From Burkholderiales bacterium (GTDB taxonomy: Bacteria > Pseudomonadota > Gammaproteobacteria > Burkholderiales > Eutrophovitaceae), in assembly GCA_035651315.1 (NCBI GenBank), contig DASRFY010000211.1, positions 148-64,147 of the forward strand: 64,000 nt of DNA. The letters run 5' to 3'. Below the pieces are notes generated by a model that worked only from the letters and a program-made list of their open reading frames with translations, ran no database searches and was not told the origin of the DNA. Below are positions 3,312 to 28,478 of the stretch, piece after piece. The position numbers were made by a program, and so were the translations under genes. The stretch's first letter is position 1, and every line of letters begins with the position of its first letter.

Positions 3312-4418
3312 CTACAGCGCCGGGCGAGCGAAGTAGCCGGTCAGCTCGAGATAGCCGAGCCCCGCGATGCGACCGTTTTCCAGCGCGCGCACCGCGCCTT
3401 CCCAGTACACGGTGCCAGTGCTGGCGCGGGCATCGAGCTCCTGGTCGTCCATCAACGGCTGCAGGAGGAATACCCGGTCGCCCGCGCGCAGCCGCATCGC
3501 GACCGGATACTGCGCATTCGTGCGCGGCGAGCGCCAGCGGCGCAAAGCCTCGAACGCGATGTTTCGGCTCGACAGCCGGCGCACCCGACCCGCGGGCTCG
3601 CGCAGCGTGCCGGCCGCCCACAGCGTGGCGCCGTCCCGCGCGCGAATGCGGAATGCCATCAACGCGCCGCCGTCGCTCAAGTTGACGCCGGTCCAGTCCC
3701 AGCCCGCCGCTTCTGGCGCAAGGTATTCGCTGGACCATTCGTGATCGAGCCATGCCTGCCCTGCGACGCGCAGCCGCCTACCTTCGATCTCGATCTGCCC
3801 GCTCACCGCGAGGTGCGGGCGGCTGTAGTAATAGCTCGCCTGCGCCGGCTTGCGCCCTTTCCGGCTGTAGCCGGCCTCGCCCTGCAGCAGGATCGGCTGC
3901 GTGGCCTCGAAGCGCAGATCGAGCGTGAATTCGCGCGCCGCGACGCGGGCGAGATAACGCTCGCCTTCGCGGCGCAGCCGCCAGTCGCCGATGCGCACGT
4001 CGGTGTCGTTCTCCCGCGCGTAGGCAAGGCCGAACCCCTCGCGCGCCGCGCGCTGATCGTGGCGCAGCCGGCCGGCGCGAGGATCGGCGATCGCCGCGTG
4101 CGCGAACAAGAGCTGCTTCGGGGCGAACGCAGACGGATTGTCTTCCTGCACGCCCGGCCGGCTGCGGAAGAACGTGACCTGGAAGCCGAACTCGCTTCCT
4201 CCTTCGTCCCGCAGCCAGCCGGTGACGTACCACCACTCGGTGCGAAAGGCGGAGTGCGCGCCGTCGTCGCGCGGAAATTCCAGCCGGTATCCCGGCCGCA
4301 CCTCGGGAAAGTCTGCGCCTTTTCCGGTCGAAGGCCAAAGAAAGGAGAAACACAACGCAAAGCCCGCAAAGGAGCGCAAAGGTCGCAAAGAAAGGCAAGA
4401 TTTTGGAATGAACGTCAA
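3312..4418 (-). CDS. Lipocalin-like / CrtC (hydroxyneurosporene synthase)-like, AttH-like protein
   Basis: Motif DDGAHSAFRTEWWYVTGWL is typical of the AttH/CrtC lipocalin-like family. The gene lies immediately downstream of FtsX-type ABC genes. The only in-frame start upstream of the signal-like region is TTG at 4418, so the start is uncertain. Confidence 0.7.
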   Translation of the reverse strand: MTFIPKSCLSLRPLRSFAGFALCFSFLWPSTGKGADFPEVRPGYRLEFPRDDGAHSAFRTEWWYVTGWLRDEGGSEFGFQVTFFRSRPGVQEDNPSAFAPKQLLFAHAAIADPRAGRLRHDQRAAREGFGLAYARENDTDVRIGDWRLRREGERYLARVAAREFTLDLRFEATQPILLQGEAGYSRKGRKPAQASYYYSRPHLAVSGQIEIEGRRLRVAGQAWLDHEWSSEYLAPEAAGWDWTGVNLSDGGALMAFRIRARDGATLWAAGTLREPAGRVRRLSSRNIAFEALRRWRSPRTNAQYPVAMRLRAGDRVFLLQPLMDDQELDARASTGTVYWEGAVRALENGRIAGLGYLELTGYFARPAL

Positions 4419-4570
4419 TGCAGCGGCCTGTTATTGCATCGGAGCGTCAACAGGTCAATGTTGTCAGGTATTGCCATCGGTACGCGGGTGACGCCCGGAA
4501 ACATCTCCGTTTTCCCTGTTTACCTTTGCGACCTTTGCGCTCCTTTGCGACCTCTGCGTCCTGCTTTTGT
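4351..4570. repeat. Element A: long inverted repeat built from tandem CGCAAAG heptamers
   Basis: Perfect 26-bp arms at 4365-4390 (cgcaaaggagcgcaaaggtcgcaaag) and 4524-4549 (exact reverse complement), with a 133-nt spacer. The left arm holds 4 CGCAAAG copies at 4356, 4365, 4375 and 4384. An imperfect 10-bp outer extension spans 4355-4364 / 4550-4559. Confidence 0.85.
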
Positions 4571-4594
4571 ATTCGTCGCTTGGGCGCCTTCAGC

Positions 4595-7096
4595 TTACCA
4601 ATCTTCCTTCACCGCCTGCACCGCTTCGTCCGACATCGCCTGGCGGCCGCTCAGCACCGCGGTGAGCACTGCGGCCGCGAGCAGCGCGGCGACGAACGCA
4701 GCCAGCGCGCCGAGCGGCCAGTGCATCTCCATGCTCCAGTGAAAGGATTGCCGGTTGACGACGTAGACCAGGATCACGCTGATCGTCGCGCCGAGGATCA
4801 GGCCGATGGCCGCCGCCATCGCCGCGACGACCAGGCCCTCCAGCACGAGCATCGCGCCGATCTGGGTCCGGCTCACGCCGAGATGCCGCAGCATGCCGAA
4901 CTCGCGCCGCCGTCCGAACGCGCGCACGGCGAAGTTCGCCGACAGCCCGGCCAGCGCGATCACCATCGCCGCGCCTTCGAGCGCGTAGGTTACGGCGAAG
5001 GTGCGGTCGAAGATCGCGAGCGAGCGCGCGCGGATCTCGCCCGGCTGCGCGATCTCGAGCCGGTCTCCGCCCTCGATCGACGCGCGTACCGCCTGCGCCA
5101 CGGCGGCCACGTCGGTGCCGGCGGCCAGCCACAGCCCGGCGTCGTTCGCGGTCGCATCGCCGGTCAGGCGCCGGTAGGTCGCGCGCGAGATCGCGAGCGC
5201 GCCGTTCTGCCTGGCGTAGTCGCGCCACACGCCCGCCACCGCGAAACGATGGGCGGCGCCGCCGAGCGGCAGGCTCACTACCTGACCGATCTTCCATCGG
5301 AACTCGTCCGCCACGTACTCGCTCACCCACACCGGCGGCGCGTCGGGCGGCAAGGCGCCGGCGCTCTTCACCAGCGGGATGGATCGGGCGGGATCGCTCT
5401 CGTCCAGATCACGCGCCAGCAGGGTCACCCGCGGCAGCGCGGGATCGAGCAGGATCTGCTGCACGCGCAGGAATTCCACCCGCCGCACGCCGGGCAGCGC
5501 GCGAATGCGCTCCTGGGTCTCGGGCGGCAGATAGGCGCTGTCGCCCTTCGGCGCGGCACGCAGATACAGATCCGCGGGCAGCACGCGGTCGAGCCAGCCC
5601 TCGAGCGAGACGCGAAAGGAGGCCACCATGATCGCCATCGCCACCGTGAGGCTCACCGCCGCGACCAGCGCCGCCAGACCGACGCTCACCTGTGCCGACG
5701 CAGCGCGCAACTGGGCGACGGCGAGCCGCCGCCACGGGCTGCGCCCCTCCGGCAACCATCGCGCCAGCACGGCGGTGAGGCGGGGCGTGAGCAGGATCGC
5801 GCCCAGCAGCAGCAGCGCGATCGCGAGATAACCGGACAGCGGCAGGCCTTCGACCGCCGGCAGCCAGGCCAGCGCCACGCCGAGCAGGACCAGCACCGCT
5901 CCCGGCCAGGGCGATTCCGCGCGCTCGAAGGCGTGCAGCTCGTCGCCGCTTTTCAATGCCTGCGCGGGCGGGATGCGCGCCGCATCGAGCGCCGGCGCGA
6001 GACTGCCCAGCACCGCGGCCGCCGTGCCGAGCAGGAGGAACAACGCGGTCGCCAGCGGGTCGATGGCCGCGCGCGCCCGCAGATCGCGGAAATACCCCGC
6101 GCCGAGGTCCGCGCCGAATGCATGCAGCATGGCCACAGCAAGCGCCGCGCCCGCGGCGATGCCCGCCGCCGCGCCGGCGCCGCCGACGATCGCGCCCTCG
6201 GCGACGAGCATCCGCAGCAAGGCGCCGCGCGTCACCCCGAGCACGCGCAACAGCGCGAGCTGGGCGCGGCGGCGCACCACCGAAAGCGCCTGCGCGGAGA
6301 ACACCAGCAGGCCGCCGGTGAACAATGCGACCAGCGCGAGCACGTCGAGGTTGACGCGATAGGCGCGGGTCAGCCGGGCGTTCGCCTCGAGAGCGGATTG
6401 CGGGCGCTGCACCGCCACGCCGGCGGGCAGCAGGCGCGATATTCCGGCAGCGAAGTCATCCGCGTCTATACCGGGACGCAGGCGCAGATCGACGCGCGTG
6501 ACCAGGCCTTGGCGCGCGAAGAGCCGCTGCGCGGCGGCGATGTCCATCAGCGCATAAGCCTGCGTTCCCGCGCCGCCGCCCAGAATGCCGGCAAACCGAA
6601 GCTTCGCCTCGCGCAGCCCCGCCTGGAGCGCGACGTGGTCGCCGAGCGCGAGGCGCAGCGCACGCGCCGCGGCGGGAGAGAGGTAGAGGGTGTCCGCGCG
6701 CAGCGTGTCGAGCGGGTCGTCTTGCGGCTCGCTCTCTCGGGCGATGAGCGCCGGCTGCACCCCGGCTGCGCGGAACACGTCGATGCCGATCACGCGCAAG
6801 GTTTCGTCGCGGCCGGCAAGACGCGCTTCGATCTCGAGCGCCGGGCTCGCCTCGCTCACCTCGGGCAACGCCGCGACCTGCGCGTAGAGGCGCTCGGAAA
6901 AACCGGCGCGCGGCCCGCGCAGGCTTAACTCGGCTTCGCCCGCCAGCGCCGCCTCGCCGCGCGCCATTTCCTCCATCGCGGCGCGGTTGATGATCTGCAC
7001 CGCGTAGCCGAGCGCCACGCCGAGCGCGATCGCGGCGGCGGACAGCGCACCTCGCGTCTTGCCGCGCCAGAGCATGCCGGCGACGTGGGCGATCAT
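4595..7096 (-). CDS. ABC transporter permease, FtsX/MacB-like (duplicated FtsX domains)
   Basis: The true start is MIAHVAGMLWRGKTRGALSAAAIALGVALG, with ATG at 7094-7096 overlapping the upstream stop (ATGA). About 833 aa with two FtsX-type 4-TM modules. The longer ORF 4595..7531 N-terminus is Arg-rich junk. Confidence 0.85.
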   Translation of the reverse strand: MIAHVAGMLWRGKTRGALSAAAIALGVALGYAVQIINRAAMEEMARGEAALAGEAELSLRGPRAGFSERLYAQVAALPEVSEASPALEIEARLAGRDETLRVIGIDVFRAAGVQPALIARESEPQDDPLDTLRADTLYLSPAAARALRLALGDHVALQAGLREAKLRFAGILGGGAGTQAYALMDIAAAQRLFARQGLVTRVDLRLRPGIDADDFAAGISRLLPAGVAVQRPQSALEANARLTRAYRVNLDVLALVALFTGGLLVFSAQALSVVRRRAQLALLRVLGVTRGALLRMLVAEGAIVGGAGAAAGIAAGAALAVAMLHAFGADLGAGYFRDLRARAAIDPLATALFLLLGTAAAVLGSLAPALDAARIPPAQALKSGDELHAFERAESPWPGAVLVLLGVALAWLPAVEGLPLSGYLAIALLLLGAILLTPRLTAVLARWLPEGRSPWRRLAVAQLRAASAQVSVGLAALVAAVSLTVAMAIMVASFRVSLEGWLDRVLPADLYLRAAPKGDSAYLPPETQERIRALPGVRRVEFLRVQQILLDPALPRVTLLARDLDESDPARSIPLVKSAGALPPDAPPVWVSEYVADEFRWKIGQVVSLPLGGAAHRFAVAGVWRDYARQNGALAISRATYRRLTGDATANDAGLWLAAGTDVAAVAQAVRASIEGGDRLEIAQPGEIRARSLAIFDRTFAVTYALEGAAMVIALAGLSANFAVRAFGRRREFGMLRHLGVSRTQIGAMLVLEGLVVAAMAAAIGLILGATISVILVYVVNRQSFHWSMEMHWPLGALAAFVAALLAAAVLTAVLSGRQAMSDEAVQAVKEDW

Positions 7097-7776
7097 GCGA
7101 TCCGCGACGGAGCGTTCTCGACCAGGCCACGTGGGGTGAGCGTGAGCACGCGATCCGCGGTCGCCGCCGCCAGCGTGGAGTGGGTGACGAGGATGCCTGC
7201 GGCAGCGCCCGATTTGACCTGCGCGCGCAGCAGCTGCAGCACCTGCGCCGCGGTGTCCGCGTCGAGATTGCCGGTCGGCTCGTCGGCGAGCACCAGTTGC
7301 GGCCGGTGCACCAGCGCCCGCGCGATCGCCACCCGCTGCAGCTCTCCGCCGGAAAGTGTGGCCGGCATGTCCGCGCCGCGCCCGGCAAGCCCGACCGCTG
7401 CGAGCATCTCCGCGACGCGCCGCTTGCTTTCGGCGCGGGGAACGCCGAGCAGGTCGAGCGGCAGCGCGACGTTGCGCGCGACGTCCAGATACGGCAGCAC
7501 GTGGAAGGCCTGAAACACGAAGCCCATGCACCGCCTGCGCAGCAGGGTGAGCGCGTCGTCCGACAGGGCCGACAAGGGCTCGCCTTCGAGCAACACTTCC
7601 CCGGTATCGGGGCGATCAAGCCCGGCGATCAGATTGAGCAGCGTAGATTTGCCGGCACCCGACTCGCCCATCACCGCGAGGTACTCGCCGCGCGAGAGCC
7701 TTAAGTCGACGCCGTTCAGCACCGTGCGCGGGCGCGGGCCGTCGTAGGACTTGGTGACCGATCGAATCAGCAGCAC
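7093..7776 (-). CDS. ABC transporter ATP-binding protein (LolD/MacB-type)
   Basis: Walker A GESGAGKST, signature LSGGELQRVAIARAL, Walker B LVLADEPTGNLD. GTG start at 7774-7776 is inferred, because there is no in-frame ATG near the conserved N-terminus VLLIRSVTKSY. Confidence 0.85.
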   Translation of the reverse strand: MLLIRSVTKSYDGPRPRTVLNGVDLRLSRGEYLAVMGESGAGKSTLLNLIAGLDRPDTGEVLLEGEPLSALSDDALTLLRRRCMGFVFQAFHVLPYLDVARNVALPLDLLGVPRAESKRRVAEMLAAVGLAGRGADMPATLSGGELQRVAIARALVHRPQLVLADEPTGNLDADTAAQVLQLLRAQVKSGAAAGILVTHSTLAAATADRVLTLTPRGLVENAPSRIA

Positions 7777-7865
7777 CCGCGGATCATAACGCTTCGTCCG
7801 GCGGCGCCGCTCTCGCGCCGCGCAACCGCGGCGCGCGGCGCCTTGCAAAGCGCTGCTATACTCGC

Positions 7866-7982
7866 GGCTCCTTGGGGAGTAGCCGCCCTCCGGTGTCGTG
7901 GAGGGGGATGCGTCAACACACTCGACCTGGCGGTCGTGGCGCATCCGGCGCCGCAGCGCGGGCATGGCGAGACCAATGGCAG
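7866..7982 (+). promoter_or_regulatory. yybP-ykoY (manganese) riboswitch candidate
   Basis: Conserved blocks are present in the right order: cuuGGGGAGUAGcc (7871-7884), a CCCUCC/GGAGGG hairpin, GUCAACACA (7912-7920), and GGCGAGACCaaugg (7966-7979) closing P1 against ccuugg. It sits upstream of a UPF0016/GDT1 gene, a known riboswitch-regulated family. Confidence 0.65.
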
Positions 7983-8056
7983 CAGCGCCGGCTCGGGGCT
8001 CGGGCGGCGGTGCTCTGCCATCGGTCCACCGCTGCCCAGCCCACCGCATCCTGTTC

Positions 8057-8626
8057 ATGGAAGCCTTTCTCGTCTCCGCCGGCATCGTTGCGATCGGCGA
8101 AATCGGCGACAAGACCCAGCTGCTCGCGCTCATGCTCGCCGCGCGCTTTCGGCGGCCGGTCCCGATCGTTCTCGGCATCTTCTGCGCCACGCTCGCCAAC
8201 CACGCCGCCGCCGGCGCGGTGGGCGGGCTCGCGCGCGCACTGGCGAGCCCGGAGGTGTTGCGCTGGGGCATGGGCCTGTCCTTCCTCGCGATCGCGATTT
8301 GGGCGTTGTTTCCGGACCGGGTGGACGAAGCCGAAGCGGCCGCGACGTCGCGCCTCGGCGTCTTCGCGTTGACGGTCGCGACTTTTTTTCTGGCCGAGAT
8401 CGGCGACAAGACGCAGATCGCAACGGTCGTGCTGGCGGCGCGCTACGACTCGCTGGTCGCGGTAGTGGCGGGAACGACTTGCGGCATGTTGCTCGCCGAC
8501 GTGCCCGCGGTTTTGCTCGGCCAGGCGGCGGCGCCGAAAGTACCGCTCAAGGCGGTTCGCATGGTCGCCGCGGCGCTGTTCGCGCTGATGGGCGCGGGCG
8601 CGATCGCGGGCTTCAACATTCTCTGA
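8057..8626 (+). CDS. UPF0016/GDT1 (TMEM165) family putative Mn2+/Ca2+ exporter
   Basis: Two EIGDKTQ motifs (AIGEIGDKTQLLAL and LAEIGDKTQIATV), 189 aa, 6 predicted TM segments. ATG at 8057. Confidence 0.85.
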   Translation: MEAFLVSAGIVAIGEIGDKTQLLALMLAARFRRPVPIVLGIFCATLANHAAAGAVGGLARALASPEVLRWGMGLSFLAIAIWALFPDRVDEAEAAATSRLGVFALTVATFFLAEIGDKTQIATVVLAARYDSLVAVVAGTTCGMLLADVPAVLLGQAAAPKVPLKAVRMVAAALFALMGAGAIAGFNIL

Positions 8627-9468: not shown

Positions 9469-11061
<1,593 letters not shown>

Positions 11062-11836: not shown

Positions 11837-12751
11837 ATGGGCGCGCGTGACCACAGGCCCGGCTCGAAAGCCCTCTCCTCGCCCGGAGCCGAGGACGCCG
11901 CGCTGCTGCGCACGCTCGGCGAGCGGGTGCGCGATGCGCGTTCGCGCCGCGGCCTGACGCGCAGGATGCTGGCGCGCGACTCCGGCGTGTCCGAGCGCTA
12001 CCTCGCCCAGCTCGAGTCCGGGCGCGGGAACGCCTCCATCCTGCTGCTGCGGCAGATCGGCGCGGCGGTCGGGCTTTCGCCGGCGGCCCTGTTGAGTCGG
12101 CCCGACGAAGAGCCCGCCGAACTGGGCTTCATCTACCAGTTCCTGCGCCGCCTGCCGCCGCAGCGGCTGGCGCGGGTGCGAGAGCAACTGCTGCGCGACT
12201 ATGGCAACGCGATGGCGGTTCGCGGCAAGCGCGTCGCGCTGGTCGGCCTGCGCGGCGCGGGCAAGTCCACGCTCGGCGCTGCGCTCGCCGCCGCGCTGCG
12301 CGTAGCGTTCATCGAGCTGGATCGCGAGATCGAACGCGAAGCGGCCACCAGCCTCGCGGAAATCTTCCTGCTCTACGGACAGCAGGGCTACCGCAGATAC
12401 GAGCGCCGCTGCCTGGAAAAGACGCTGGAGGCGCACGAGCGCTGCGTCATCGCCACCGGCGGCAGCATCGTCTCGGAGCCGTCCACCTACGACCTGCTGC
12501 GGTCCACCTGCTTCACCGTCTGGCTCAAGGCCTCGCCCGAGGAGCACATGGCGCGGGTGATTGCGCAGGGCGACACGCGCCCGATGGCCGGCAATGCGCA
12601 GGCGATGGACGACCTGCGACGGATCCTGGCCGGCCGCGCGCCGCTTTACGGGCAGGCGGACGCGACGGTCGAGACCGCCGGGCGCAGCGTGCGACAAAGC
12701 CTCGCGGCGCTCAAGCGCGCGATCCGGGCCCGGGAAGGAGGAGCACCATGA
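11837..12751 (+). CDS. boxR: BoxR/BzdR-type regulator (XRE HTH fused to a shikimate-kinase-like domain)
   Basis: N-terminal HTH (GLTRRMLARDSGVSERYLAQLESGRGN). The C-terminal P-loop GLRGAGKST with a shikimate-kinase-like fold is diagnostic of the BzdR/BoxR architecture. The stop overlaps the boxC start (ATGA). Confidence 0.85.
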   Translation: MGARDHRPGSKALSSPGAEDAALLRTLGERVRDARSRRGLTRRMLARDSGVSERYLAQLESGRGNASILLLRQIGAAVGLSPAALLSRPDEEPAELGFIYQFLRRLPPQRLARVREQLLRDYGNAMAVRGKRVALVGLRGAGKSTLGAALAAALRVAFIELDREIEREAATSLAEIFLLYGQQGYRRYERRCLEKTLEAHERCVIATGGSIVSEPSTYDLLRSTCFTVWLKASPEEHMARVIAQGDTRPMAGNAQAMDDLRRILAGRAPLYGQADATVETAGRSVRQSLAALKRAIRAREGGAP

Positions 12752-14433
12752 GCGCAGTCGCCCAGGGCGCGGCGCCGAAAGAGACGACGCCCGTCACGTT
12801 CGATACCCATCCGGACCGCTACGCGCACTGGCGGCTGTCGATCGACGAGCCGGTGGCGACGCTCGCGATGGACGTCGCCGAGGACAGGGGCCTGCAGCCG
12901 GGCTACCGGCTGAAGCTCAACTCCTACGACTTGGGCGTGGACATCGAGCTCAACGACGCGCTCAACCGCATCCGCTTCGAGCACCCGGCGGTGAAGTGCG
13001 TGGTCATCACCAGCGCAAAGGAGCGCATGTTCTGCTCCGGCGCCAACATCTACATGCTCGGCCAGTCCGGCCACGCGTGGAAAGTCAACTTCTGCAAGTT
13101 CACCAACGAGACCCGCAACGGCATGGAGGACTCCAGCCGCCACGAGGGCCTGAAGTTCCTGGCGGCGGTGAACGGCACGGTCGCCGGGGGAGGCTACGAG
13201 CTGGCGCTCGCCTGCGACGAGATCGCGATGATCGACGATCGCTCGTCCACGGTGAGCCTGCCGGAAGTGCCGCTGCTCGGCGTGCTGCCGGGAACGGGCG
13301 GCCTGACGCGGCTCCTCGACAAGAGGAAAGTCCGGCGCGATCTCGCCGATGTGTTTGCTTCCACGGCCGAAGGCGTGCGCGCCGATCGCGCGCAGCAGTG
13401 GAAGCTGGTGGATCATATCGCGCGCCCGCAGCAGTTCGCACAGGTCGTGAAGGAACGCGCCGCGGCGCTGTGCGCGCAAAGCACGCGAAGCGCAACAGGG
13501 CAAGGCGTATCGTTGCCACCGCTCGCGCGCACGATCGACGCGGAGGGCTTGCACTACCGCCACGTCGACGTGCGGATCGACCGCAAGGCGCGCAGCGCGA
13601 CGATCACGGTCCATGGGCCGGACGGCGCGCAGCCGGCAGACGCAGGCGAGATCCGGGAAGCCGGCGCGCAGTGGTGGCCGCTCGCCGTGGCGCGCGAGCT
13701 GGACGACGCGATCCTGATGTTACGCACCAACGAACTCGAGATCGGCCTCTGGCTTCTGAAGACCCTCGGCGACGTGCAGGCGGTACTCGCAACGGATGCC
13801 GTGCTGAAGGCGCAGCGCGACGACTGGTTCGTGCGCGAGACCGTAGGCTGGCTGCGGCGGGCGCTGGCGCGGCTGGATGTCAGCTCGCGTAGCCTGTTCG
13901 CGATCGTCGACCACGGTTCGTGCTTTGCCGGCACGCTCGCGGAGCTGGCGCTCGCTGCCGACCGCAGCTACATGCTGGCATCGCCGGAAGCGGAACCGGG
14001 CGCGCCCGAGATCGCGCTGTCGGAAATGAACTTCGGCGCCTACCCCATGGCGAACCGCTTGACGCGGCTGCAGACGCGCTTCTGCGGCGAAATCGCCGCC
14101 GCCCACGCGCTGCGCGCGCGGATCGGCCAGCCGCTGAAGGCTTCGCAGGCGCTCGCCCTCGGGCTGGTGACCTTCGCCCCCGACGACATCGACTGGGCGG
14201 AAGAGGTGCGCATCGCGGTGGAGGAACGCGCGAGCCTTTCGCCCGACGCGCTGACCGGCATGGAAGCCAACCTGCGCTTCGCCGGCTCGGAGACGATGGA
14301 GACGCGCATCTTCGGGCGTCTCTCGGCGTGGCAGAACTGGATCTTCGGCCGTCCGAATGCGGTCGGCGAGCACGGTGCATTGAAGGTTTACGGCTCCGGC
14401 GCCAAAGCCAAGTTCAGCTGGGAACGAGTGTGA
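12748..14433 (+). CDS. boxC: 2,3-epoxybenzoyl-CoA dihydrolase (benzoyl-CoA-dihydrodiol lyase)
   Basis: 561-aa crotonase-superfamily protein with BoxC-type length and N-terminal region (HPDRYAHWRL, LNSYDLGVDIELNDAL, FCSGANIYML). Confidence 0.9.
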   Translation: MSAVAQGAAPKETTPVTFDTHPDRYAHWRLSIDEPVATLAMDVAEDRGLQPGYRLKLNSYDLGVDIELNDALNRIRFEHPAVKCVVITSAKERMFCSGANIYMLGQSGHAWKVNFCKFTNETRNGMEDSSRHEGLKFLAAVNGTVAGGGYELALACDEIAMIDDRSSTVSLPEVPLLGVLPGTGGLTRLLDKRKVRRDLADVFASTAEGVRADRAQQWKLVDHIARPQQFAQVVKERAAALCAQSTRSATGQGVSLPPLARTIDAEGLHYRHVDVRIDRKARSATITVHGPDGAQPADAGEIREAGAQWWPLAVARELDDAILMLRTNELEIGLWLLKTLGDVQAVLATDAVLKAQRDDWFVRETVGWLRRALARLDVSSRSLFAIVDHGSCFAGTLAELALAADRSYMLASPEAEPGAPEIALSEMNFGAYPMANRLTRLQTRFCGEIAAAHALRARIGQPLKASQALALGLVTFAPDDIDWAEEVRIAVEERASLSPDALTGMEANLRFAGSETMETRIFGRLSAWQNWIFGRPNAVGEHGALKVYGSGAKAKFSWERV

Positions 14434-14448
14434 AAAGCGGAACATCAA

Positions 14449-14722
14449 CGCCTCAACGCAGTGGCGCAGAATCCAAATCCACTTCTCAACGCAGAGGCGC
14501 AGAGGACGCAGAGTTCGCAGAGGAAAATCGGGAATGAAATGTGTGGACAGCAGATCGTCGGACTTGAACATGGAGAAGCGCATTTGAGCACATCCGCGTC
14601 GACTGCCAATGCAAGACAAGGCCAATGCTTACACCCTATCTCTTCCACATAGCACGACTGTGGCTCCGGTATCGAGTTCTTTCTCTGCGAACTCTGCGTC
14701 CTCTGCGCCTCTGCGTTGAGAT
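14449..14722. repeat. Element B: long inverted repeat built from tandem CGCAGAG heptamers
   Basis: Perfect 38-bp arms at 14485-14522 (ctcaacgcagaggcgcagaggacgcagagttcgcagag) and 14683-14720, with a 160-nt spacer. CGCAGAG copies at 14490, 14498, 14507 and 14516. An unpaired partial copy of the arm start (ctcaacgcagtggcgcaga) lies at 14451-14469. Confidence 0.9.
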
Positions 14723-14743
14723 TTCGATGTTAGGAGTTAATTC

Positions 14744-16153
14744 GTGAGCATCAACTACAGCGAGCGGATTCCGAACAACGTCGACCTCGCGAACGACCGG
14801 GCGCTGCAGCGCGCGCTCGAGCACTGGCAGCCGAAGTTTCTCGACTGGTGGCGGGAAATGGGGCCGAACCGGTTCGCCTCAGACGAGGTGTACCTGCGCA
14901 CGGCGGTGGGCGTGGACGCGCAGGGTTGGGCGAGCTACGGCTTCGTGAAGATGCCGGACTATCGCTGGGGCATCTTTCTCGCCGATCCGACTCCGGATCG
15001 CACGATCGGTTTTGGCGATTACTTCGGACAGCCGGCCTGGCAGCAGGTGCCGGGCGAGCTGCGCTCGGCGTTCCGCCGCATCATCGTCACCCAGGGCGAC
15101 ACCGAACCCGCGTCGGTCGAGCAGCAGCACCTGCTCGGCCTCACCTGCCCCTCGCTGTACGACCTCAGGAACCTGTTCCAGGTGAACGTCGAGGAAGGGC
15201 GCCATCTGTGGGCGATGGTCTACCTGCTGCACGCCCATTTTGGGCGCGATGGGCGCGAAGAGGCGGAAGAGCTGCTGGCGCGCCACTCCGGGGACGCCGA
15301 CAAGCCGCGCATCCTCGGCACCTTCAACGAGCCGATCCGCGACTGGCTGTCTTTCTTCATGTTCACCTACTTCACCGACCGCGACGGCAAATTCCAGTTG
15401 AAAAGCCTCGCCGAGTCGGGGTTCGACCCGCTGGCGCGCACCTGCCGCTTCATGCTCACCGAGGAAGCGCACCACATGTTCGTCGGCGAGAGCGGGGTCG
15501 GGCGGGTGGTGAAGCGCACGCTGGAGGTGATGAGGGAGCTGGGCACCGACGATCCGGACGCGGTGCGAAGACAGGGAGCGATCGACCTGCCGACGATCCA
15601 GCGCTACCTGAATTTCTGGTACAGCTCCTCGCTGGACCTGTTCGGCTCGGAGGTGTCGTCGAACGCGGCATCCTCGTTCGCCAACGGCATCAAGGGGCGT
15701 CCCGACGAGACGCAATACGAAGACCATGATTGCGCCGATGCCAGCTTCGAGCTCGAGACGCCGCAAGGCAGGGAAGTCGTCGGCCTGCGCAACGCGATGA
15801 ACGAGGTGCTGCGCGAGGCCTACAGCAGGGACTGCGAGATCGGGGTCAGGCGCTGGAACATGCAGATCAGGCGCGCGGGGATCGATTTCGAGCTGAAGTT
15901 ACCGAGCTCGCGGTTCCGCCGCATGATCGGCGTCTGGGCCAATGCGACCGTCGATCCCGCCGGCAATGCGCTGGCGCGCGAAGAGTACGAGCGGCGCATT
16001 GCCGAGTGGATCCCGAGCGAGTCCGACCGCGCCTTCGTCCAAGGCTTGATGCAGCGCGTCGTCGAACCGGGGAAGGTGGCGAGCTGGATCGCCCCGCCGG
16101 AGCGCGGCATCAACAACCTGCCGGTGGATTACGAGTACGTGCGGCTCGACTGA
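14744..16153 (+). CDS. boxB: Benzoyl-CoA 2,3-epoxidase, oxygenase subunit B
   Basis: 469-aa diiron oxygenase with the typical BoxB N-terminus SINYSERIPNNVDL and EEGRH / EEAHH diiron ligand motifs. GTG start at 14744 with AGGAG 7 nt upstream. Confidence 0.9.
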   Translation: MSINYSERIPNNVDLANDRALQRALEHWQPKFLDWWREMGPNRFASDEVYLRTAVGVDAQGWASYGFVKMPDYRWGIFLADPTPDRTIGFGDYFGQPAWQQVPGELRSAFRRIIVTQGDTEPASVEQQHLLGLTCPSLYDLRNLFQVNVEEGRHLWAMVYLLHAHFGRDGREEAEELLARHSGDADKPRILGTFNEPIRDWLSFFMFTYFTDRDGKFQLKSLAESGFDPLARTCRFMLTEEAHHMFVGESGVGRVVKRTLEVMRELGTDDPDAVRRQGAIDLPTIQRYLNFWYSSSLDLFGSEVSSNAASSFANGIKGRPDETQYEDHDCADASFELETPQGREVVGLRNAMNEVLREAYSRDCEIGVRRWNMQIRRAGIDFELKLPSSRFRRMIGVWANATVDPAGNALAREEYERRIAEWIPSESDRAFVQGLMQRVVEPGKVASWIAPPERGINNLPVDYEYVRLD

Positions 16154-24669: not shown

Positions 24670-24731
24670 GCAAATGCCGCAAACCGCCGCCCGCAGCGGG
24701 TAAGCGGGCGCAGTCTCGCTGCTTCAGAACA

Positions 24732-25106: not shown

Positions 25107-25123
25107 CGAAATTCCTTCTCCAT

Positions 25124-25171
25124 GGCGCCGATGCGGCGCAAAGTATTTCCGGCGCCGCTGCGGCGCAAAGT
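25124..25171. repeat. Tandem duplicated 21-mer, each copy a small GC hairpin
   Basis: ggcgccgatgcggcgcaaagt (25124-25144) and ggcgccgctgcggcgcaaagt (25151-25171) match at 20/21 with period 27. Each contains a GCGCCG-N3-CGGCGC dyad. Confidence 0.7.
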
Positions 25172-25183
25172 GCGGGCAGTGTA

Positions 25184-28100
25184 TCAGGCGGTCGAGCGCC
25201 GCGCCTGCCCGCTTCGCGGCTGGAAGCGCCCGAAGTGCAGAAGCACGGTCGGCAGGACGAGCAGATTGAGTATCGTGGAAGTCGCCAGTCCGCCGACGAT
25301 GATGATCGCCATCGGCCCCTCGATTTCCCGCCCCGGCTCACCCGAGCCGACGGCGAGCGGCAGCAGCCCGAGCCCGGTCACCAGCGCGGTCATCAGGATG
25401 GACGGCAATCGCTCCGCGGCGCCGCGCAGCGCGGTTTCCAGCCCCCACGGCGCGCCCTCGGCTTCGACCAGATACTGATAGTGCGACACCAGCATGATGG
25501 AGTTGCGCAGCGTGATGCCGAACAGGGTGACGAATCCCACCAGCGAGCCCAGCGAGAGCCAGCCGCCGGTGCCGAGCACCGCGATCACCCCGCCGATCAG
25601 AGCGAACGGCAGATTGAGGAAGGTGATGACGAGGTTGTGCAGGCTGTTGAACGCGAGGTAGAGCAGCAGGAAGATGCCTACGCTCGCCAGCAGAGAATGC
25701 GCGACGAGATCGGTGCGCGCCTGCCGCTGTGCCGCGGCGGTGCCGCTCACCACGACGTAGTCGCCCGGCGAAAGCCGCACCTGCTTCGCGATCTGCCGGC
25801 TTGCATCCTGCTCGAAGGCCTGCAAGTCGCGGCCGTCGACATCGGCGGTCACGGTCTGGATGCGCCTTCCTCCCGAATGCAGCACCTTGTAGCGCCCGCC
25901 GGTCACTTCGATGTCGGCGACGTCGGACAGCCGCACCAGCCTGCCGTCCGGATTACGCATGGTGAGCCACCCCACCTGCGCAATGCTGTCGCGGATGCGC
26001 GGCGGCAGCACGACGACGAGATCGATCACCTGGGTGCCGCGGTAGATCTGGCCGACGGTTGCGCCCTCGTAAGCGGCGTGGACGGCCGCGAGCGCGGCCG
26101 CCGGCGTGAGCCCGAGCGCAGTCACGCGCTCGGGACGCAGCCGTACCGTGAGCTGCGGCGTGCCGGGCGGCGCCTGCAGCTGCACGTCCCGCGCGCCGGG
26201 AACCGCGGAAAGCGAAGACGCCACCGCCAGCGCGTCGCGGTCGAGCGCGTCCAGATTGGCGCCGTACAGGTTCACCACCAGCGGCGCCGCGTAGCCGCTG
26301 ATCGTCTCTTCGATGCGCTCGGTGAGGAAGGTATTGACCGCGAATGCCACGCCGGGAAAGCCGGCGCCGCGCGCGCCGGAGAGCGTGGCGCGGATTTCGT
26401 CCAGGATGCGCGCCTGCTCGGCTCCCCCCAGCGAGCCGATCTCGACCTCGAATTCGCTGTAGTGCGTGCCGAAGGTGTCGGCGCCGTTCTTCGAACGTCC
26501 GACCCATTGGGCGACCGTTTTCACGCCCTTGACCGACAGGATCGCTTCGGAGACGCGCCGGCCGATGCGCAGCGACTCGGCCTCCGAGGTGCCGGGCACC
26601 GCGGTCATGTGGATGATGTAGTGGCCTTCACGCAGCGCCGGGATGAACTCGCCGGAAAACAGCGGCAGGATGCCGATCCCGGCCGCGATCACCACGAATA
26701 CGGCGCCGACGATGCGGCCCGGATAGCGTTCGATCCGCCGCAGCAAGGCGAGATAGCGCGGCTTGAGCCACGCCACTGCGGGCGGATCGGTGGACTTCAG
26801 TTCGCTGCGCGCGAGCAGCAGGTAGCACAGCGCGGGCGTGAGCGTCACCGCCACCAGCAGCGATGCGAGGATGGCGAAGATATAGGCCATTCCCAGCGGG
26901 GCGAAGAGCTTGCCCGCGACGCCGGAGAGCGTGAGCAGCGGCACGAATACCAGGGCGACGATGAAGGTGGCATAGACGACCGAGCTGCGCACCTCGACCG
27001 AGGCATCGAGCACCACTTCCTGCGCCGGCCGCGGCGCCGCCGAGGCACGGTTCAGGCGCAGCCGCCGGAAGATATTCTCGGTGTCGATGATGGCGTCGTC
27101 GACCACTTCTCCGAGCGCGATCGCGAGCCCGCCCAGTACCATGACGTTGAGCCCCACGCCGAAATGGTCGAGCACCAGCACCGCCGTGAGCAGCGACACC
27201 GGGATCGCCAGCGTGCAGATGAACGCGGTGCGGGTGTTGAACAGGAACAGGAACAGCACCAGCACCACCAGCACCGAGCCGACCACGATGTCGCGCCGCA
27301 CGTTGGTGACCGCGGTCTCGATGAAGTTGGCGGGACGGAACAGCTCGGCGTGCAGGGTGACCTGCTCCTTCTCGAGCAGCGGTCCCAGCTCCTCCAGCGC
27401 GCGCTCCAGCTCCTGGGTCACCGCGTGCGTGTTGGCCCCGAGCTGGCCCTGCACCATCATGAATACGCCCGGCACGCCGTCGATCGCCGCCGCGCCGATC
27501 GACGGCGCCGGCCCCTCGGTCACTTCGGCGACGTCCGAAATGCGCACCGCCTGCCCCGCGCGATAGACCAGTATCACGCGCCCGACGTCCCCGATCGCGT
27601 GCGGCTGGGCGTCGGTCTGCACGATGATCTGCTGATTGGGCGTCTTCACGAATCCGGTGCCCGCCATCCCGGCCGCGCCGCGTGCCGCGGCCGCCACGTC
27701 CTCGATGGAAAGCGCGTAGCCGCGCAGCCGTTCCGGATCGACCTGGATCTGCCACTGGCGCACGTCGCCGCCGAACACGTTCACCTCCGCCACGCCCGGC
27801 ACCGCGAGCAGATGCGGGCGGATGGTCCAGTCGGTCAGCGTGCGCAGCTCCATCAGGCTGCGCGTCTTCGACGTGATGCCCACGCCGAGCACGGTGCTGG
27901 CGGAGGAAGTCAGCGGCGTCATGGTCGGCGGCGCGACTCCGCGCGGCATCTGCCCGGCGAGCACCGCGAGCCGCTCGTTGACCACCTGGCGGTTGCGGTA
28001 GGTGTCGGAGCCGTCCCGGAAGAACACGTGCACCACCGACAGGCCGGGGATCGATTGCGAGCGCAGCGACTCCAGCCCGGTCACGCCGCCGAGCGCGCTT

Positions 28101-28309
28101 TCGATCGGCTGCGTGACCAGCGTCTCCACCAGTTCCGCGGAAAGCCCCGGAGCCTCGGTCTGGATCACGACCTGGCTGGGGGAAAACTCCGGGAACACGT
28201 CGAGGTTGGCGCGAAACAACGTGTACAGGCCGTAGGCGATCAGGGTCGCCGCGAGCGCGACAACTACGCCCGCGTAGCGGATGGAAAACCGGACGATCGC
28301 TGCGATCAT
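25184..28309 (-). CDS. Heavy-metal-efflux RND permease (CusA/CzcA family)
   Basis: 1041 aa. The N-terminus MIAAIVRFSIRYAGVVVALA and overall HME-RND conservation (LDVFPEFSPSQVVIQTEAPG) support the call. Confidence 0.9.
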   Translation of the reverse strand: MIAAIVRFSIRYAGVVVALAATLIAYGLYTLFRANLDVFPEFSPSQVVIQTEAPGLSAELVETLVTQPIESALGGVTGLESLRSQSIPGLSVVHVFFRDGSDTYRNRQVVNERLAVLAGQMPRGVAPPTMTPLTSSASTVLGVGITSKTRSLMELRTLTDWTIRPHLLAVPGVAEVNVFGGDVRQWQIQVDPERLRGYALSIEDVAAAARGAAGMAGTGFVKTPNQQIIVQTDAQPHAIGDVGRVILVYRAGQAVRISDVAEVTEGPAPSIGAAAIDGVPGVFMMVQGQLGANTHAVTQELERALEELGPLLEKEQVTLHAELFRPANFIETAVTNVRRDIVVGSVLVVLVLFLFLFNTRTAFICTLAIPVSLLTAVLVLDHFGVGLNVMVLGGLAIALGEVVDDAIIDTENIFRRLRLNRASAAPRPAQEVVLDASVEVRSSVVYATFIVALVFVPLLTLSGVAGKLFAPLGMAYIFAILASLLVAVTLTPALCYLLLARSELKSTDPPAVAWLKPRYLALLRRIERYPGRIVGAVFVVIAAGIGILPLFSGEFIPALREGHYIIHMTAVPGTSEAESLRIGRRVSEAILSVKGVKTVAQWVGRSKNGADTFGTHYSEFEVEIGSLGGAEQARILDEIRATLSGARGAGFPGVAFAVNTFLTERIEETISGYAAPLVVNLYGANLDALDRDALAVASSLSAVPGARDVQLQAPPGTPQLTVRLRPERVTALGLTPAAALAAVHAAYEGATVGQIYRGTQVIDLVVVLPPRIRDSIAQVGWLTMRNPDGRLVRLSDVADIEVTGGRYKVLHSGGRRIQTVTADVDGRDLQAFEQDASRQIAKQVRLSPGDYVVVSGTAAAQRQARTDLVAHSLLASVGIFLLLYLAFNSLHNLVITFLNLPFALIGGVIAVLGTGGWLSLGSLVGFVTLFGITLRNSIMLVSHYQYLVEAEGAPWGLETALRGAAERLPSILMTALVTGLGLLPLAVGSGEPGREIEGPMAIIIVGGLATSTILNLLVLPTVLLHFGRFQPRSGQARRSTA

Positions 28310-28318
28310 GAATAACGA

Positions 28319-28478
28319 TTAACCACAGAGACTCAAAGACACAGAGAAAATCCGGATTAACCACCAAGGCACCAAGGAAATCGTAAAAGTTGTTCCTGAG
28401 TTTCTTGGTGTCTTTTGTGCCTTAGTGGTGATATATCGCTTTGGAAGTTCTCTGTGCCTCTGTGTCTCTGTGGTTCTA
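28319..28478. repeat. Element C: nested inverted repeats built from CACAGAG and CACCAAGG tandem units
   Basis: Outer arms 28321-28348 / 28448-28475 match at 25/28 and share aaccacagagac and cacagagaa. Inner arms 28359-28380 / 28401-28430 (accaccaaggcac vs accactaaggcac) are imperfect. The central loop is about 20 nt. Confidence 0.85.

What the first reader, a model, noticed from the sequence alone, without database searches (positions are those of the whole stretch)
4351..28478. A family of intra-operon long hairpins whose arms are tandem 7-8-mers: same architecture, different repeat unit, always self-complementary
Three intergenic elements (4351-4570, 14449-14722, 28319-28478) share one design. 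The left arm is 2-4 tandem copies of a C-R-C-A-R-A-G unit with period 8-10 nt, and the right arm is the exact complement. The unit differs per element: CGCAAAG/CTTTGCG in A, CGCAGAG/CTCTGCG in B, and CACAGAG/CTCTGTG plus CACCAAGG/CCTTGGTG in C. Between copies the sequence changes but the pairing is kept, which is compensatory covariation and argues for selection on a folded structure rather than on a sequence. The junctions are also related. Arms start with cWcaaC or ttaaCC. After the left arm, B has gagGAAAATCGGGAATGAA and C has gagAAAATCCGGATTAA, and A shares GGAATGAA with B. The right arm is preceded by atcg...gttct in B and C. All three lie between consecutive same-strand genes of an operon: permease/attH-like, boxC/boxB, and MFP/RND. 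Every transition mismatch in A and C (4360/4554, 4364/4550, 28336/28460, 28339/28457, and the single c/t transition in the inner arms of C) becomes a G-U wobble only on the minus strand, which is the transcribed strand at both loci. I do not know of a described element class with these properties. REP/BIME, Correia and ERIC elements have fixed arm sequences.
Basis: partly seen in the sequence, partly recalled or inferred. Interest (0 to 1): 0.85.

Follow-up and report, generated by a model that had tools for sequence, protein, structure and literature searches.

The report
Hairpin insertion elements with tandem-heptamer arms
The three hairpins are real, gene-less copies of a very widespread but barely described bacterial repeat element whose two arms are short arrays of a 7-base unit; its full-length form carries a small nuclease-fold gene of unknown function (GxxExxY), a link I found reported in none of the papers I could search.

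Summary
Observation confirmed. A (4348-4566), B (14477-14728) and C (28321-28475) are the three strongest inverted repeats in the window. Their arms are 2-4 tandem CRCARAG units, and each lies between same-strand genes.

They are not operon-specific regulators. The boxC-boxB junction is 32 nt or less in 45 of 67 relatives, and other relatives carry different elements there.

Polarity is fixed, with the purine-rich array 5' (46:4 and 26:2). The ends share a TTYAM motif. Neighbouring hairpins use many other units.

New link: in the full-length form these arms bracket a ~125-aa GxxExxY gene (Pfam PF13366, PD-(D/E)XK fold, function unknown). All 10 gene copies chosen by protein alone carry the arrays, including copies inside the fabD-fabG operon of sphingomonads.

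Orthologue comparisons show constrained arms: 95.5% identity against 66% in the loop. They also show unit-number slippage and compensatory pair changes.

Best reading: gene-less members of a mobile cassette class whose arms form an RNA stem in the co-transcribed operon. Cleavage of that stem by RNase III is inferred, and so is mobilisation by GxxExxY.

New variant of a known kind; interest 0.7.

The parts
4348..4390 (.). Element A, left arm: CGCAAAG x4 (4356, 4365, 4375, 4384) preceded by AAACACAA
   Evidence: (I2)
4391..4523 (.). Element A, loop (133 nt). No homologue in any fetched locus and no ORF remnant.
4524..4566 (.). Element A, right arm: CTTTGCG x3 plus CTCTGCG. 37 of 43 positions complementary to the left arm.
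14441..14474 (.). Element B, extra partial copy of the left end (AACATCAACGCCTCAACGCAGTGGCGCAGA...). About 32 nt of it are absent from the orthologous element in L207, so it is a lineage-specific partial duplication.
   Evidence: (I5)
14477..14525 (.). Element B, left arm: TCTCAA + CGCAGAG g CGCAGAG ga CGCAGAG tt CGCAGAG. Perfect 39-bp pairing for 14484-14522.
   Evidence: (I1)
14526..14679 (.). Element B, loop (154 nt). 66% identical to the L207 orthologue, similar to 4-fold degenerate sites. No ORF remnant, promoter or terminator.
14680..14728 (.). Element B, right arm: CTCTGCG aa CTCTGCG tc CTCTGCG c CTCTGCG + TTGAGA. It ends about 15 nt before the boxB ribosome-binding site.
28321..28353 (.). 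Element C, outer left arm: AAC CACAGAG ac TCAAAG a CACAGAG
   Evidence: (I3)
28360..28378 (.). Element C, inner (nested) left arm: AC CACCAAGG CACCAAGG, preceded by the same GATTAACCAC end motif as the outer arm
28404..28429 (.). Element C, inner right arm: CTTGGTG t CTTTTGTG c CTTAGTGGT
28443..28475 (.). Element C, outer right arm: CTCTGTG c CTCTGTG t CTCTGTG GTT
12748..14433 (+). boxC-like enoyl-CoA hydratase family gene, immediately upstream of B (context)
14744..16153 (+). boxB (benzoyl-CoA 2,3-epoxidase subunit B), immediately downstream of B (context)
4595..7531 (-). FtsX/MacB-type permease gene, upstream of A on the transcribed (minus) strand (context)
25184..28309 (-). AcrB-family RND pump gene, downstream of C on the minus strand (context)

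Best explanation
A, B and C are three independent, gene-less copies of a pan-bacterial class of inverted-repeat insertion elements.

Anatomy of the class:
- Each arm is a short array of 2-4 copies of a 7-nt core, here CRCARAG, separated by 1-3 free spacer bases.
- The purine-rich array is always the 5' arm on either strand.
- The arms end in a TTYAM / KTRAA terminal motif.

Full-length and gene-less forms. In the full-length form the two arms bracket a ~125-aa GxxExxY gene (Pfam PF13366, PD-(D/E)XK nuclease fold). The window copies have only unconstrained loop sequence between the arms.

Behaviour. The elements settle in intergenic spacers, often between cistrons of an operon, and are co-transcribed. 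Array length changes by unit slippage. The cores and the arm pairing are kept by selection while the loop drifts.

Inferred, not shown:
- In the polycistronic RNA the arms form a 25-45-bp duplex that acts as an RNase III-type processing or insulating stem. This would resemble the stems that bracket rRNAs, 23S intervening sequences and T7 early cistrons, and would let the insertion sit in an operon without polarity.
- The repeated cores are the sites through which a GxxExxY nuclease supplied in trans mobilises or maintains the elements, much as RAYT acts on REPINs.
For: Shown in the window:
- The three elements are far beyond chance.
- Their loops are unrelated to each other.

Shown across genomes:
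- Polarity is fixed: 46:4 (p = 4e-10) and 26:2.
- The outer ends share a consensus of T 59%, T 53%, C/T, A 51%, A/C. TTCAC is the commonest form.
- Loci chosen for CGCARAG arrays hold about 26 further paired arrays with other units in 856 kb. The unselected boxB loci hold 2 in 453 kb.

Insertion status of B:
- The boxC-boxB junction has a median of 10 nt, and is 32 nt or less in 45 of 67 relatives.
- L122, L209 and L210 carry elements with other units and unrelated loops at the same junction.

Orthologous copy in L207 (BoxB 89% amino-acid identity):
- Arms are 64/67 identical and the loop 102/155, against 4-fold sites at 61-77%. Fisher p = 5e-7.
- There is one 9-nt unit indel and one compensated spacer change.

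GxxExxY link:
- Nine PF13366 ORFs lie in the array-selected loci. Eight have arrays directly beside them, and the ninth has only array-like codons in its N-terminal extension. There are none in the 453-kb control.
- All 10 gene copies chosen by protein alone are flanked by the arrays. These are 9 independent loci and include 4 finished replicons.
- One of them, L204 5630-6013, uses the CACAGAG unit of element C.
- E27, D67, E77 and K79 are invariant. The AlphaFold model has pLDDT 92.9, and its best PDB matches are Cas4 and lambda-exonuclease-type nucleases.

Evidence for RNA-level pairing:
- In the fabD-GxxExxY-fabG element of three sphingomonads the arms are about 430 nt apart yet 97.5% paired.
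- Three pairs there changed on both sides. All three one-sided changes are G-U on the sense strand.
- In the window, 8 of 9 transitions are G-U on the sense strand.
Against: - No GxxExxY gene or remnant is present in the window, in about 85 kb from five Burkholderiales relatives, in the beta-proteobacterial array loci, or in 1.07 Mb of IMG/VR loci that carry the arrays. The link to the window copies therefore rests on shared arm type, polarity, ends and insertion habit.
- No target-site duplication is visible, and no empty-versus-filled pair close enough to define the insertion junction was found.
- Loops of A, B and C share nothing, unlike copies of a classical MITE.
- Old copies (L048) tolerate many unpaired positions.
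- The sense-strand G-U bias is weak in the broad set, 33:24 with p = 0.14.
- Neither RNase III cleavage nor any GxxExxY activity has been observed.
- The tandem-heptamer periodicity is not explained by an RNase III role.
Confidence: 0.6

Rival explanations
1. Host cis-regulatory RNA. Each hairpin is a structured intercistronic RNA selected to tune expression of its own operon through processing, stability or translational coupling. The sequence is free as long as the stem is kept.
For: - All three window copies lie between same-strand cistrons.
- The stems are very stable.
- Arms are conserved and the loop is not in the window-L207 pair.
- Compensatory changes and sense-strand G-U are seen.
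Against: - The orthologous boxC-boxB junction is empty in most relatives and holds unrelated elements in others.
- The same elements occur between convergent and divergent genes and in IMG/VR contigs.
- Arm sequence, not only pairing, is conserved: heptamer cores are 48/49 identical between orthologues.
- Fixed array polarity and shared end motifs across phyla point to common descent of a mobile unit rather than local invention.
Confidence: 0.15
2. In-situ origin without mobility. Heptamer simple-sequence repeats expand by polymerase slippage, and the complementary array is created and kept perfect by intrastrand template switching (quasipalindrome correction). Each locus would then arise on the spot.
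For: - Unit-number indels are seen between orthologues, and there are pure direct arrays (L208; L312).
- Heptamer SSRs are reported to be over-represented in prokaryotes (PMC4692102 citing Mrazek 2007).
- Loops differ between copies in the window.
- B keeps a perfect 39-bp stem despite 34% loop divergence.
Against: - The same core, the same polarity (46:4 and 26:2) and the same terminal motif recur in about 20 phyla at 30-73% GC.
- Copies within one genome can share loop sequence (L048, L029, L202).
- Arms about 430 nt apart around an ORF still covary, which template switching across a hairpin does not readily explain.
- The tight association with one protein family is not predicted.
Confidence: 0.12
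3. Ordinary REP/BIME (REPIN) elements mobilised by a RAYT (TnpA-REP) tyrosine transposase.
For: - They are intergenic, palindromic and multi-copy, often at the 3' ends of genes.
- The associated gene is flanked by the repeats in inverted orientation, as RAYT genes are.
Against: - Arms are arrays of 7-nt units rather than a single 20-40-nt palindrome.
- No GTAG/CGTC tag is seen at the ends.
- The gene found with them is PF13366 (PD-(D/E)XK), not a Y1/HUH transposase.
Confidence: 0.05
4. Integron attC sites, or clusters of attC sites lacking an integrase (CALIN-like). These are structure-conserved, sequence-variable recombination hairpins that bound gene cassettes.
For: - The structure is conserved while the sequence varies.
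- B's ends, CTCAAC...GTTGAG, resemble RYYYAAC/GTTRRRY.
- L048 has four elements at about 1.1-kb spacing.
- Small toxin-antitoxin genes lie beside the arrays.
Against: - Most ends are TTCAC/GTGAA, not AAC/GTT.
- The genes between the L048 elements are ordinary ABC-transporter operon genes.
- The elements sit inside conserved operons such as box and fab.
- No integrase was seen in any locus gene table.
Confidence: 0.03

Closest known systems
Xanthomonas GGGAATC heptamer repeats in convergent inverted pairs (Rehm et al. 2015, PMC4692102); more generally, the heptamer SSR excess of prokaryotic intergenic DNA (Mrazek 2007, cited there) and cyanobacterial STRR heptamers
   Same: - Tandem 7-nt units lie in intergenic DNA.
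- About 40% of arrays occur as plus/minus convergent pairs able to form stem-loops.
- They lie between the same genes in sister species, with extensive length and sequence variation.
- They are transcribed.
   Different: - That work read them as G-quadruplex motifs in two genera.
- The units here have no G-tracts.
- No cross-phylum class, fixed polarity, terminal motif or associated gene was described.
REP / BIME / REPIN elements with their RAYT (TnpA-REP) gene
   Same: - Both are high-copy intergenic palindromes that are co-transcribed.
- In both, a small single-copy gene is flanked by the repeats in inverted orientation.
- Both show long-term vertical persistence.
   Different: - Arm design differs: arrays of 7-mers with free spacers rather than one tagged palindrome.
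- There is no GTAG tag.
- The partner protein has a PD-(D/E)XK fold, not HUH/Y1.
MITEs inserted in operons (for example Chunjie of Geobacter, Correia/NEMIS of Neisseria, ERIC); comparison from general knowledge
   Same: - Size is 100-300 nt, with terminal inverted repeats.
- They insert between cistrons without breaking the operon.
- Hairpin transcripts are processed by RNase III in the Correia case.
   Different: - No target-site duplication is seen, and no transposase.
- Internal sequence is not conserved among the window copies.
- Arm sequence differs from element to element.
23S rRNA intervening sequences and rRNA or T7 intercistronic processing stems (from general knowledge)
   Same: - A long duplex is formed by sequences that bracket an optional small ORF inside a transcription unit.
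- The stem is cut by RNase III, so the insert is tolerated.
- In some genomes the small ORF families concerned (23S_rRNA_IVP; here GxxExxY) are multi-copy. A 23S_rRNA_IVP gene lies in a GxxExxY locus.
   Different: - Those stems are not built of tandem heptamers.
- Cleavage has not been shown for the present elements.

Membership tests
   A, B and C. Class examples.
   A, B and C all have CRCARAG first. Class counts are 46:4 and 26:2.
   B has TCTCAA, C has TTAAC and A has ACACAA, against the class consensus. B and C fit; A fits only partly.
   B only: 45 of 67 relatives have 32 nt or less at the junction. A and C could not be tested because look-ups were exhausted.
   hmmsearch --max of the six-frame window found nothing. 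The window copies are gene-less, so they are filed as non-autonomous members.
REP/BIME (REPIN-RAYT) | Single 20-40-nt imperfect palindrome carrying a conserved GTAG or CGTC tag at one end | tested here: not met
   Arms are arrays, and no such tag is seen at the ends.
REP/BIME (REPIN-RAYT) | Cognate RAYT (Y1 transposase) gene flanked by the repeats | not tested
   The source genome is not available. The flanked gene found in other genomes is PF13366.
MITE | Terminal inverted repeats, 50-500 bp, no coding capacity | tested here: met
MITE | Target-site duplication flanking the inverted repeats | tested here: not met
   No direct repeat abuts the arm ends of A, B or C, by inspection.
MITE | Copies share internal sequence and derive from an IS with a matching transposase | tested here: not met
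   Loops of A, B and C are unrelated. Some other genomes do show shared loops. No transposase was identified.
Xanthomonas-type G-rich heptamer inverted repeats (PMC4692102) | Tandem heptamers in convergent plus/minus pairs in intergenic DNA | tested here: met
Xanthomonas-type G-rich heptamer inverted repeats (PMC4692102) | GGG tracts able to form G-quadruplexes | tested here: not met
   The units CGCAGAG, CGCAAAG and CACAGAG lack G-tracts.
Integron attC | R''/R' core sites RYYYAAC ... GTTRRRY at the ends | tested here: not met
   B resembles this (CTCAAC/GTTGAG), but the class consensus is TTCAC/GTGAA.
Integron attC | Bounds promoterless cassettes near an intI gene | tested here: not met
   The elements lie inside the box, RND-pump and fab operons. 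No integrase appears in the locus gene tables.
RNase III processing stem (rRNA / IVS / T7 type) | Duplex of 20 bp or more formed within a transcript by sequences bracketing the excised segment | tested here: met
   Predicted stems of 33-49 bp. Covariation is seen across a 430-nt loop.
RNase III processing stem (rRNA / IVS / T7 type) | Cleavage by RNase III in vivo | not testable with these tools
   Needs transcript end mapping with and without rnc.
Any Rfam family | Covariance-model score at or above the gathering threshold | tested here: not met
   The only hits are sub-threshold matches to eukaryotic miRNA-precursor hairpins in C.

The most novel reading that the evidence does not exclude
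These hairpins, together with the long-noted excess of heptamer repeats in prokaryotic intergenic DNA, are the footprint of a previously unrecognised pan-bacterial cassette system. In it, a minimal PD-(D/E)XK nuclease (GxxExxY, PF13366, function unknown) is carried between heptamer-array arms. Those arms would act both as its DNA recognition sites and as an RNA excision stem that lets the cassette live inside essential operons. The gene-less copies in this window would be its REPIN-like satellites, maintained or replaced in place by the nuclease.
Probability: 0.35. Interest if true: 0.85.

Novelty: new variant of a known kind. Interest (0 to 1): 0.7.

Why it matters
- It gives a concrete, testable context for a very large protein family with no known function. 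PF13366 filled all 8,000 scored candidates at E <= 1e-10 in two searches.
- It gives the same for the unexplained excess of 7-nt tandem repeats in bacterial intergenic DNA.
- It shows that long perfect hairpins between cistrons of catabolic, efflux and even fatty-acid-synthesis operons are insertions of a shared element class. Annotators and transcript-structure studies should treat them as such.
- These repeats break short-read assemblies (contigs end inside them) and spawn spurious ORFs.
- The sphingomonad fabD-GxxExxY-fabG locus and the Bacteroides copies are in cultured organisms, so both the RNA-processing and the nuclease hypotheses can be tested directly.

Tried and rejected
1. Rfam, at gathering threshold over the whole window and at E <= 1 on each element, gave no family.
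2. blastn of B against 72,556 plasmids gave only a chance 38-nt hit in a Streptomyces NRPS gene.
3. A literal search for the arm sequence in 8 million papers found none. 'GxxExxY' or PF13366 appears only in incidental mentions, listed as function unknown. Elhai 2008 and Mrazek 2007 could not be opened.
4. I looked for a decayed GxxExxY ORF in the loops of A, B and C and found none.
5. Loop homology among A, B, C and the elements at the same junction in relatives exists only for window-L207 and the L210 duplicates. 'Covariation among A, B and C' is therefore rejected as a comparison of homologues.
6. A general test for sense-strand G-U across 36 co-directional elements gave 33:24, not significant. 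The gene calls were crude.
7. The integron attC idea (L048 spacing, AAC/GTT ends) is rejected by end consensus and gene content.
8. Terminator or promoter function in B: no matches.
9. Assembly artefact is rejected, because the arrays are present in finished genomes of cultured isolates (Sorangium NC_021658, and Sphingomonas, Bacteroides and Gemmatirosa replicons).
10. The near-identical strain protein P0122 was not on record, so no same-species empty site was obtained.
11. PDB sequence search for GxxExxY gave no hit. The fold search gave only generic PD-(D/E)XK nucleases at E about 1e-3.


Full report

Yes. A search of the whole 64-kb window (66.9% GC) for inverted repeats ranks the three loci first, second and third.
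- B: arms 14477-14525 / 14680-14728, 49 nt, 92% complementary.
- A: arms 4348-4390 / 4524-4566, 43 nt, 86%.
- C: arms 28321-28353 / 28443-28475, 33 nt, 85%.

Arm-against-arm alignment shows a perfect 39-bp core in B (14484-14522 / 14683-14721). A has six mismatches and C has five. C also holds a nested inner pair built of CACCAAGG units.

Folded as RNA of the transcribed strand, the regions give -108.8, -131.3 and -72.0 kcal/mol. The z-scores are -8.1, -8.8 and -9.8, and none of 200 shuffles does as well. The tandem units are as described. CRCARAGNNCRCARAG occurs 8 times against 0.00 expected, and only in A and B.

- A lies between an FtsX/MacB permease and a CrtC/AttH-like protein.
- B lies between boxC and boxB.
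- C lies upstream of an AcrB-type pump. The 'MFP' above C matches the adaptor family only weakly.

No Rfam family matches. B has no promoter-like or terminator-like site. Names attached to identical and near-identical BoxB proteins place the window in an uncultured Burkholderiales bacterium.

**2. The elements are insertions, not conserved parts of the operons.**

I fetched 80 relatives of boxB from metagenomes. In the 67 with both genes, the boxC-boxB spacer has a median of 10 nt, is 32 nt or less in 45, and exceeds 100 nt in only 9. The window has 310 nt.

The closest of these relatives, L122, has a 210-nt element at the same spot. Its arms are GGTGAAT x5 / ATTCACC x6. Other long spacers hold unrelated palindromic repeat families.

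Five closer Burkholderiales relatives were obtained through protein look-ups.
- L207 (BoxB 89% identical) has the same element as the window.
- L208 has a 63-nt spacer with only a direct GTCACTC x3 array.
- L209 has a 164-nt element, TTCAC-CGCAAAG/CGCGAAG ... CTTCGCG/CTTTGCG-GTGA.
- L210 and L211 have a 411-nt spacer with a duplicated element. Its units are CGCTGAG/CGCGGAG/CGCAGAG, and the complements CTCAGCG/CTCCGCG lie in the other arm.

Loop sequences are homologous only between the window and L207 (z = 19) and between the two L210 copies (z = 37). All other pairs, including A, B and C with each other, are at noise level.

L209 and L210 are as close to each other (boxB nucleotide identity 0.889) as the window is to L207 (0.891). 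Yet they differ in arms and loops at both junctions they share, the boxC/boxB junction and an ABC/ABC junction. Elements therefore turn over at occupied sites.

Two assemblies break inside the element.

**3. The architecture is pan-bacterial.**

A scan of one genome per species (185,579 species) for three CGCARAG units spaced 1-3 nt stopped at its 120-locus limit. The loci come from the following groups, at 33-74% GC, and include cultured isolates and finished genomes:
- Chloroflexota, Acidobacteriota, Planctomycetota, Verrucomicrobiota, Cyanobacteria and Bacteroidota;
- alpha-, beta-, gamma-, delta- and zeta-proteobacteria;
- Nitrospirota, Nitrospinota, Gemmatimonadota, Armatimonadota, Methylomirabilota, Cloacimonadota and Firmicutes.

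The typical copy reads ttCAC-CGCAGAGnCGCAGAGnnCGCAGAG - loop of 11-440 nt - CTCTGCGnCTCTGCG-GTGaa.

Two features argue for shared descent rather than 'any hairpin'.
- The purine-rich array is the 5' arm in 46 of 50 neighbouring array pairs in genomes (p = 4e-10) and in 26 of 28 in IMG/VR. The reverse order would fold equally well.
- The five bases outside the first core share a consensus across phyla: T 59%, T 53%, C/T, A 51%, A/C. TTCAC is the commonest form.

The same 8-kb loci hold about 26 further paired arrays with other units, among them AATATCC, CATCTGA, TAGGGAA, GAATGGC, CAGGGTT, CAGTGTA x9, GGTTCAA, CACGAATT and CACAGAG. The 453 kb of boxB loci, which were not chosen for arrays, hold only 2. 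'Same design, different unit' is thus a property of the class.

Nested or compound arms like those of C are common (L003, L231).

By crude gene calls the elements lie between co-directional (36), convergent (15) and divergent (8) genes. They are intergenic rather than specifically intra-operon.

**4. The link to GxxExxY genes.**

Looking for array pairs with long spacers, I found that in L087 (Algoriphagus) the arms bracket a 125-aa ORF. The same holds in L006 and L052. Pfam assigns these ORFs to PDDEXK_3 (PF13366, E about 1e-43) and NCBIfam to 'GxxExxY protein'.

A local profile search finds nine such ORFs in eight of the 120 array-selected loci. Eight have arrays directly beside them. For the ninth, at the edge of L052, the only sign is array-like codons in its N-terminal extension. 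The 453-kb control and the window have none. One copy, L081, has CACGAAG/CTTCGTG arms.

The reverse test matters more. All ten gene copies, in nine independent loci, are flanked by the arrays. Examples:
- L204: TCA-CGCAAAGgCGCAAAGgTGCAAAG-[ORF]-CTTGGCGtCTTCGCGcCTTTGCG-TGA, wedged between two genes of a polysaccharide operon.
- L204, second copy: CACAGAG arms, the unit of window element C.
- Sphingomonas parapaucimobilis: fabD-[TTCA-CGCGAAG...ORF...CTTCGCG-TGAA]-fabG.
- Bacteroides finegoldii: radA-[TTCAC-CACAGAGgaCGCAGAGgaCACGGAG-ORF-CTCTGTGacCTCTGTGtcCTCTGTG-GTGAA].

The ORF lies either in the loop of one large hairpin or between complete small hairpins.

On the protein itself:
- The family is very large. 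All 8,000 scored candidates had E <= 1e-10, and many sit on contigs of 0.5-3 kb.
- E27, D67, E77 and K79, the PD-(D/E)XK catalytic pattern, are invariant.
- The AlphaFold model is confident (pLDDT 92.9). Its best PDB matches are Cas4, lambda-exonuclease-like and tRNA-splicing nucleases at E about 1e-3.
- It has no sequence relative in the PDB.
- The one survey that lists the family gives its function as unknown (PMC3424549). 'GxxExxY' otherwise appears only incidentally.

Caveats. No GxxExxY gene occurs in the window, in the Burkholderiales loci, or in 1.07 Mb of IMG/VR loci with arrays. In IMG/VR other small ORFs sometimes occupy the loop.

**5. How the arms evolve.**

Window B and its orthologue in L207 (alignment A1):
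- The arms are 35/38 and 29/29 identical (95.5%).
- The loop is 102/155 identical (66%).
- 4-fold degenerate sites are 77% identical in boxB and 61% in boxC.
- The arm-versus-loop contrast has Fisher p = 5e-7. Three or fewer differences in 67 positions at the loop rate has probability 5e-9.

Within the arms the heptamer cores are 48/49 identical, while two of five left-arm spacer bases changed. TT became GT with the partner AA becoming AC, which is compensated. GA became GC, and its partner unit is deleted. One whole 9-nt unit is missing from the L207 right arm. The window has an extra 32-nt partial duplication of the left end.

Cores are therefore under sequence constraint, spacers are free but paired, and unit number slips.

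The fabD-GxxExxY-fabG element is shared by Sphingomonas and Sphingobium. Its arms are about 430 nt apart yet 97.5% paired. Three pairs changed on both sides (A-U to G-C), against 1.0 expected in shuffles (15 of 500 shuffles reach it). All three one-sided changes are G-U on the sense strand.

In the window, 8 of 9 transition mismatches are G-U on the sense strand. Pooled, that is 11 of 12, p = 0.003. The broad set gives only 33:24, p = 0.14.

Four paralogous copies in L048 show many uncompensated mismatches. Pairing is therefore favoured, not absolute.

**6. Interpretation.**

Shown:
- A, B and C belong to a widespread class of heptamer-array inverted repeats.
- B is an insertion that has persisted since before the window/L207 split.
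- Its arms are constrained in sequence and pairing, and its loop is not.
- The class brackets GxxExxY genes.

Inferred:
- (i) The window copies are gene-less satellites of GxxExxY cassettes. This rests on identical arm type, polarity, end motif and insertion habit.
- (ii) The arms act as an RNA duplex in the operon transcript. Covariation across a 430-nt loop and sense-strand G-U favour RNA over a DNA cruciform. A perfect duplex of 25-45 bp is the canonical RNase III substrate, as in rRNA, IVS and T7 processing stems (general knowledge).
- (iii) The repeated cores are protein recognition sites, GxxExxY being the obvious candidate, in analogy to REPIN-RAYT.
- (iv) Periodic arms make the stem tolerant of indels and able to grow by slippage.

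Not explained: the mobilisation mechanism, the lack of target-site duplications, the fixed array polarity, and the replacement of elements at occupied sites.

**7. Comparison with what is known, and verdict.**

The closest published description is the set of GGGAATC heptamer arrays of Xanthomonas. There are about 186 per genome, and 70-75 of them are convergent inverted pairs lying between the same genes in sister species with variable length. They were interpreted as G-quadruplex motifs (PMC4692102). That paper also notes the unexplained heptamer SSR excess in prokaryotes. TAACTGA direct repeats (PMC4679880) and cyanobacterial STRRs are related phenomena.

REP/BIME-RAYT, operon-resident MITEs and IVS-type stems are functional analogues, but each fails at least one defining feature (see the membership table).

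The window elements are ordinary members of a class that is itself poorly described. I found no prior report of the cross-phylum unity of the class, its fixed polarity and end motif, or its association with PF13366.

I rate the finding as a new variant of a known kind, with interest 0.7.

Noticed in passing
window 7862-8001 (+) and 7883-8626 (+): A manganese riboswitch (yybP-ykoY, RF00080, 57.4 bits) lies directly in front of a GDT1-family divalent-cation transporter ORF. This is the usual pairing for that riboswitch.
   Followed up: partly
window 28489-~29550 (-): The presumed periplasmic adaptor ('MFP') gene upstream of element C has no Pfam hit. It has only a sub-threshold NCBIfam RND_mfp match over residues 267-348 (36 bits against a cut-off of 94.9). 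The gene is divergent or damaged.
   Followed up: partly
L213 1495-1923; L338 1501-1932; L340 1501-1917: In Sphingomonas and Sphingobium a GxxExxY gene with heptamer arms is a conserved resident between fabD and fabG of the fatty-acid synthesis operon (protein identity 75-95% across genera). The right arm is read through as a C-terminal tail (...SASSRLRVNQ).
   Followed up: yes
L130 2834-2995, L137 2661-2807; L157 2757-3001, L162 2787-2974: The boxC-boxB spacer of other soil relatives holds two further, unrelated palindromic repeat families: 'gcccccctgttaaggggggaagcgagcg...' and 'ttgtcatcacgagcg...cgtgatgacaa'.
   Followed up: no
L208 9937-10001: In this relative the junction carries only a direct array GTCACTC/GTCACTT x3 with no complementary arm. 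It could be a half-element or an SSR seed.
   Followed up: no
L210 9589-10001 (= L211 1109-1521): There is a tandem duplication of the 3' end of boxC together with the element. This gives two diverged copies of the hairpin in one spacer.
   Followed up: partly
L218 2771-3051; L219 9469-9879 (IMG/VR contigs): The same CGCAGAG arms bracket other small ORFs in contigs classed as viral. One is a ~75-aa ORF and one, on the reverse strand, looks gp49-like to my eye. No GxxExxY gene occurs in 1.07 Mb of such loci.
   Followed up: partly
L203 4552-5140 and 6338-6798; L206 738-3712 and 8377-8393; L052 ~4240-4542: GxxExxY/heptamer-hairpin regions are interleaved with small toxin-antitoxin genes (PemK, ParE/YoeB with Phd, PIN with Phd, MqsA-like) and a 23S_rRNA_IVP gene, inside polysaccharide-synthesis clusters.
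   Followed up: no
L001 position 1 (= window ~14606); L212 position 1: Two independent short-read assemblies end inside the boxC-boxB element, and many GxxExxY proteins are known only from 0.5-3-kb contigs. These inverted repeats fragment assemblies.
   Followed up: partly
L312 6845-6948: A long pure tandem run of the CGCAGAG-type unit. blastn matches to arm B recur at 24-nt steps over about 100 nt, and I did not look for a complementary arm.
   Followed up: no
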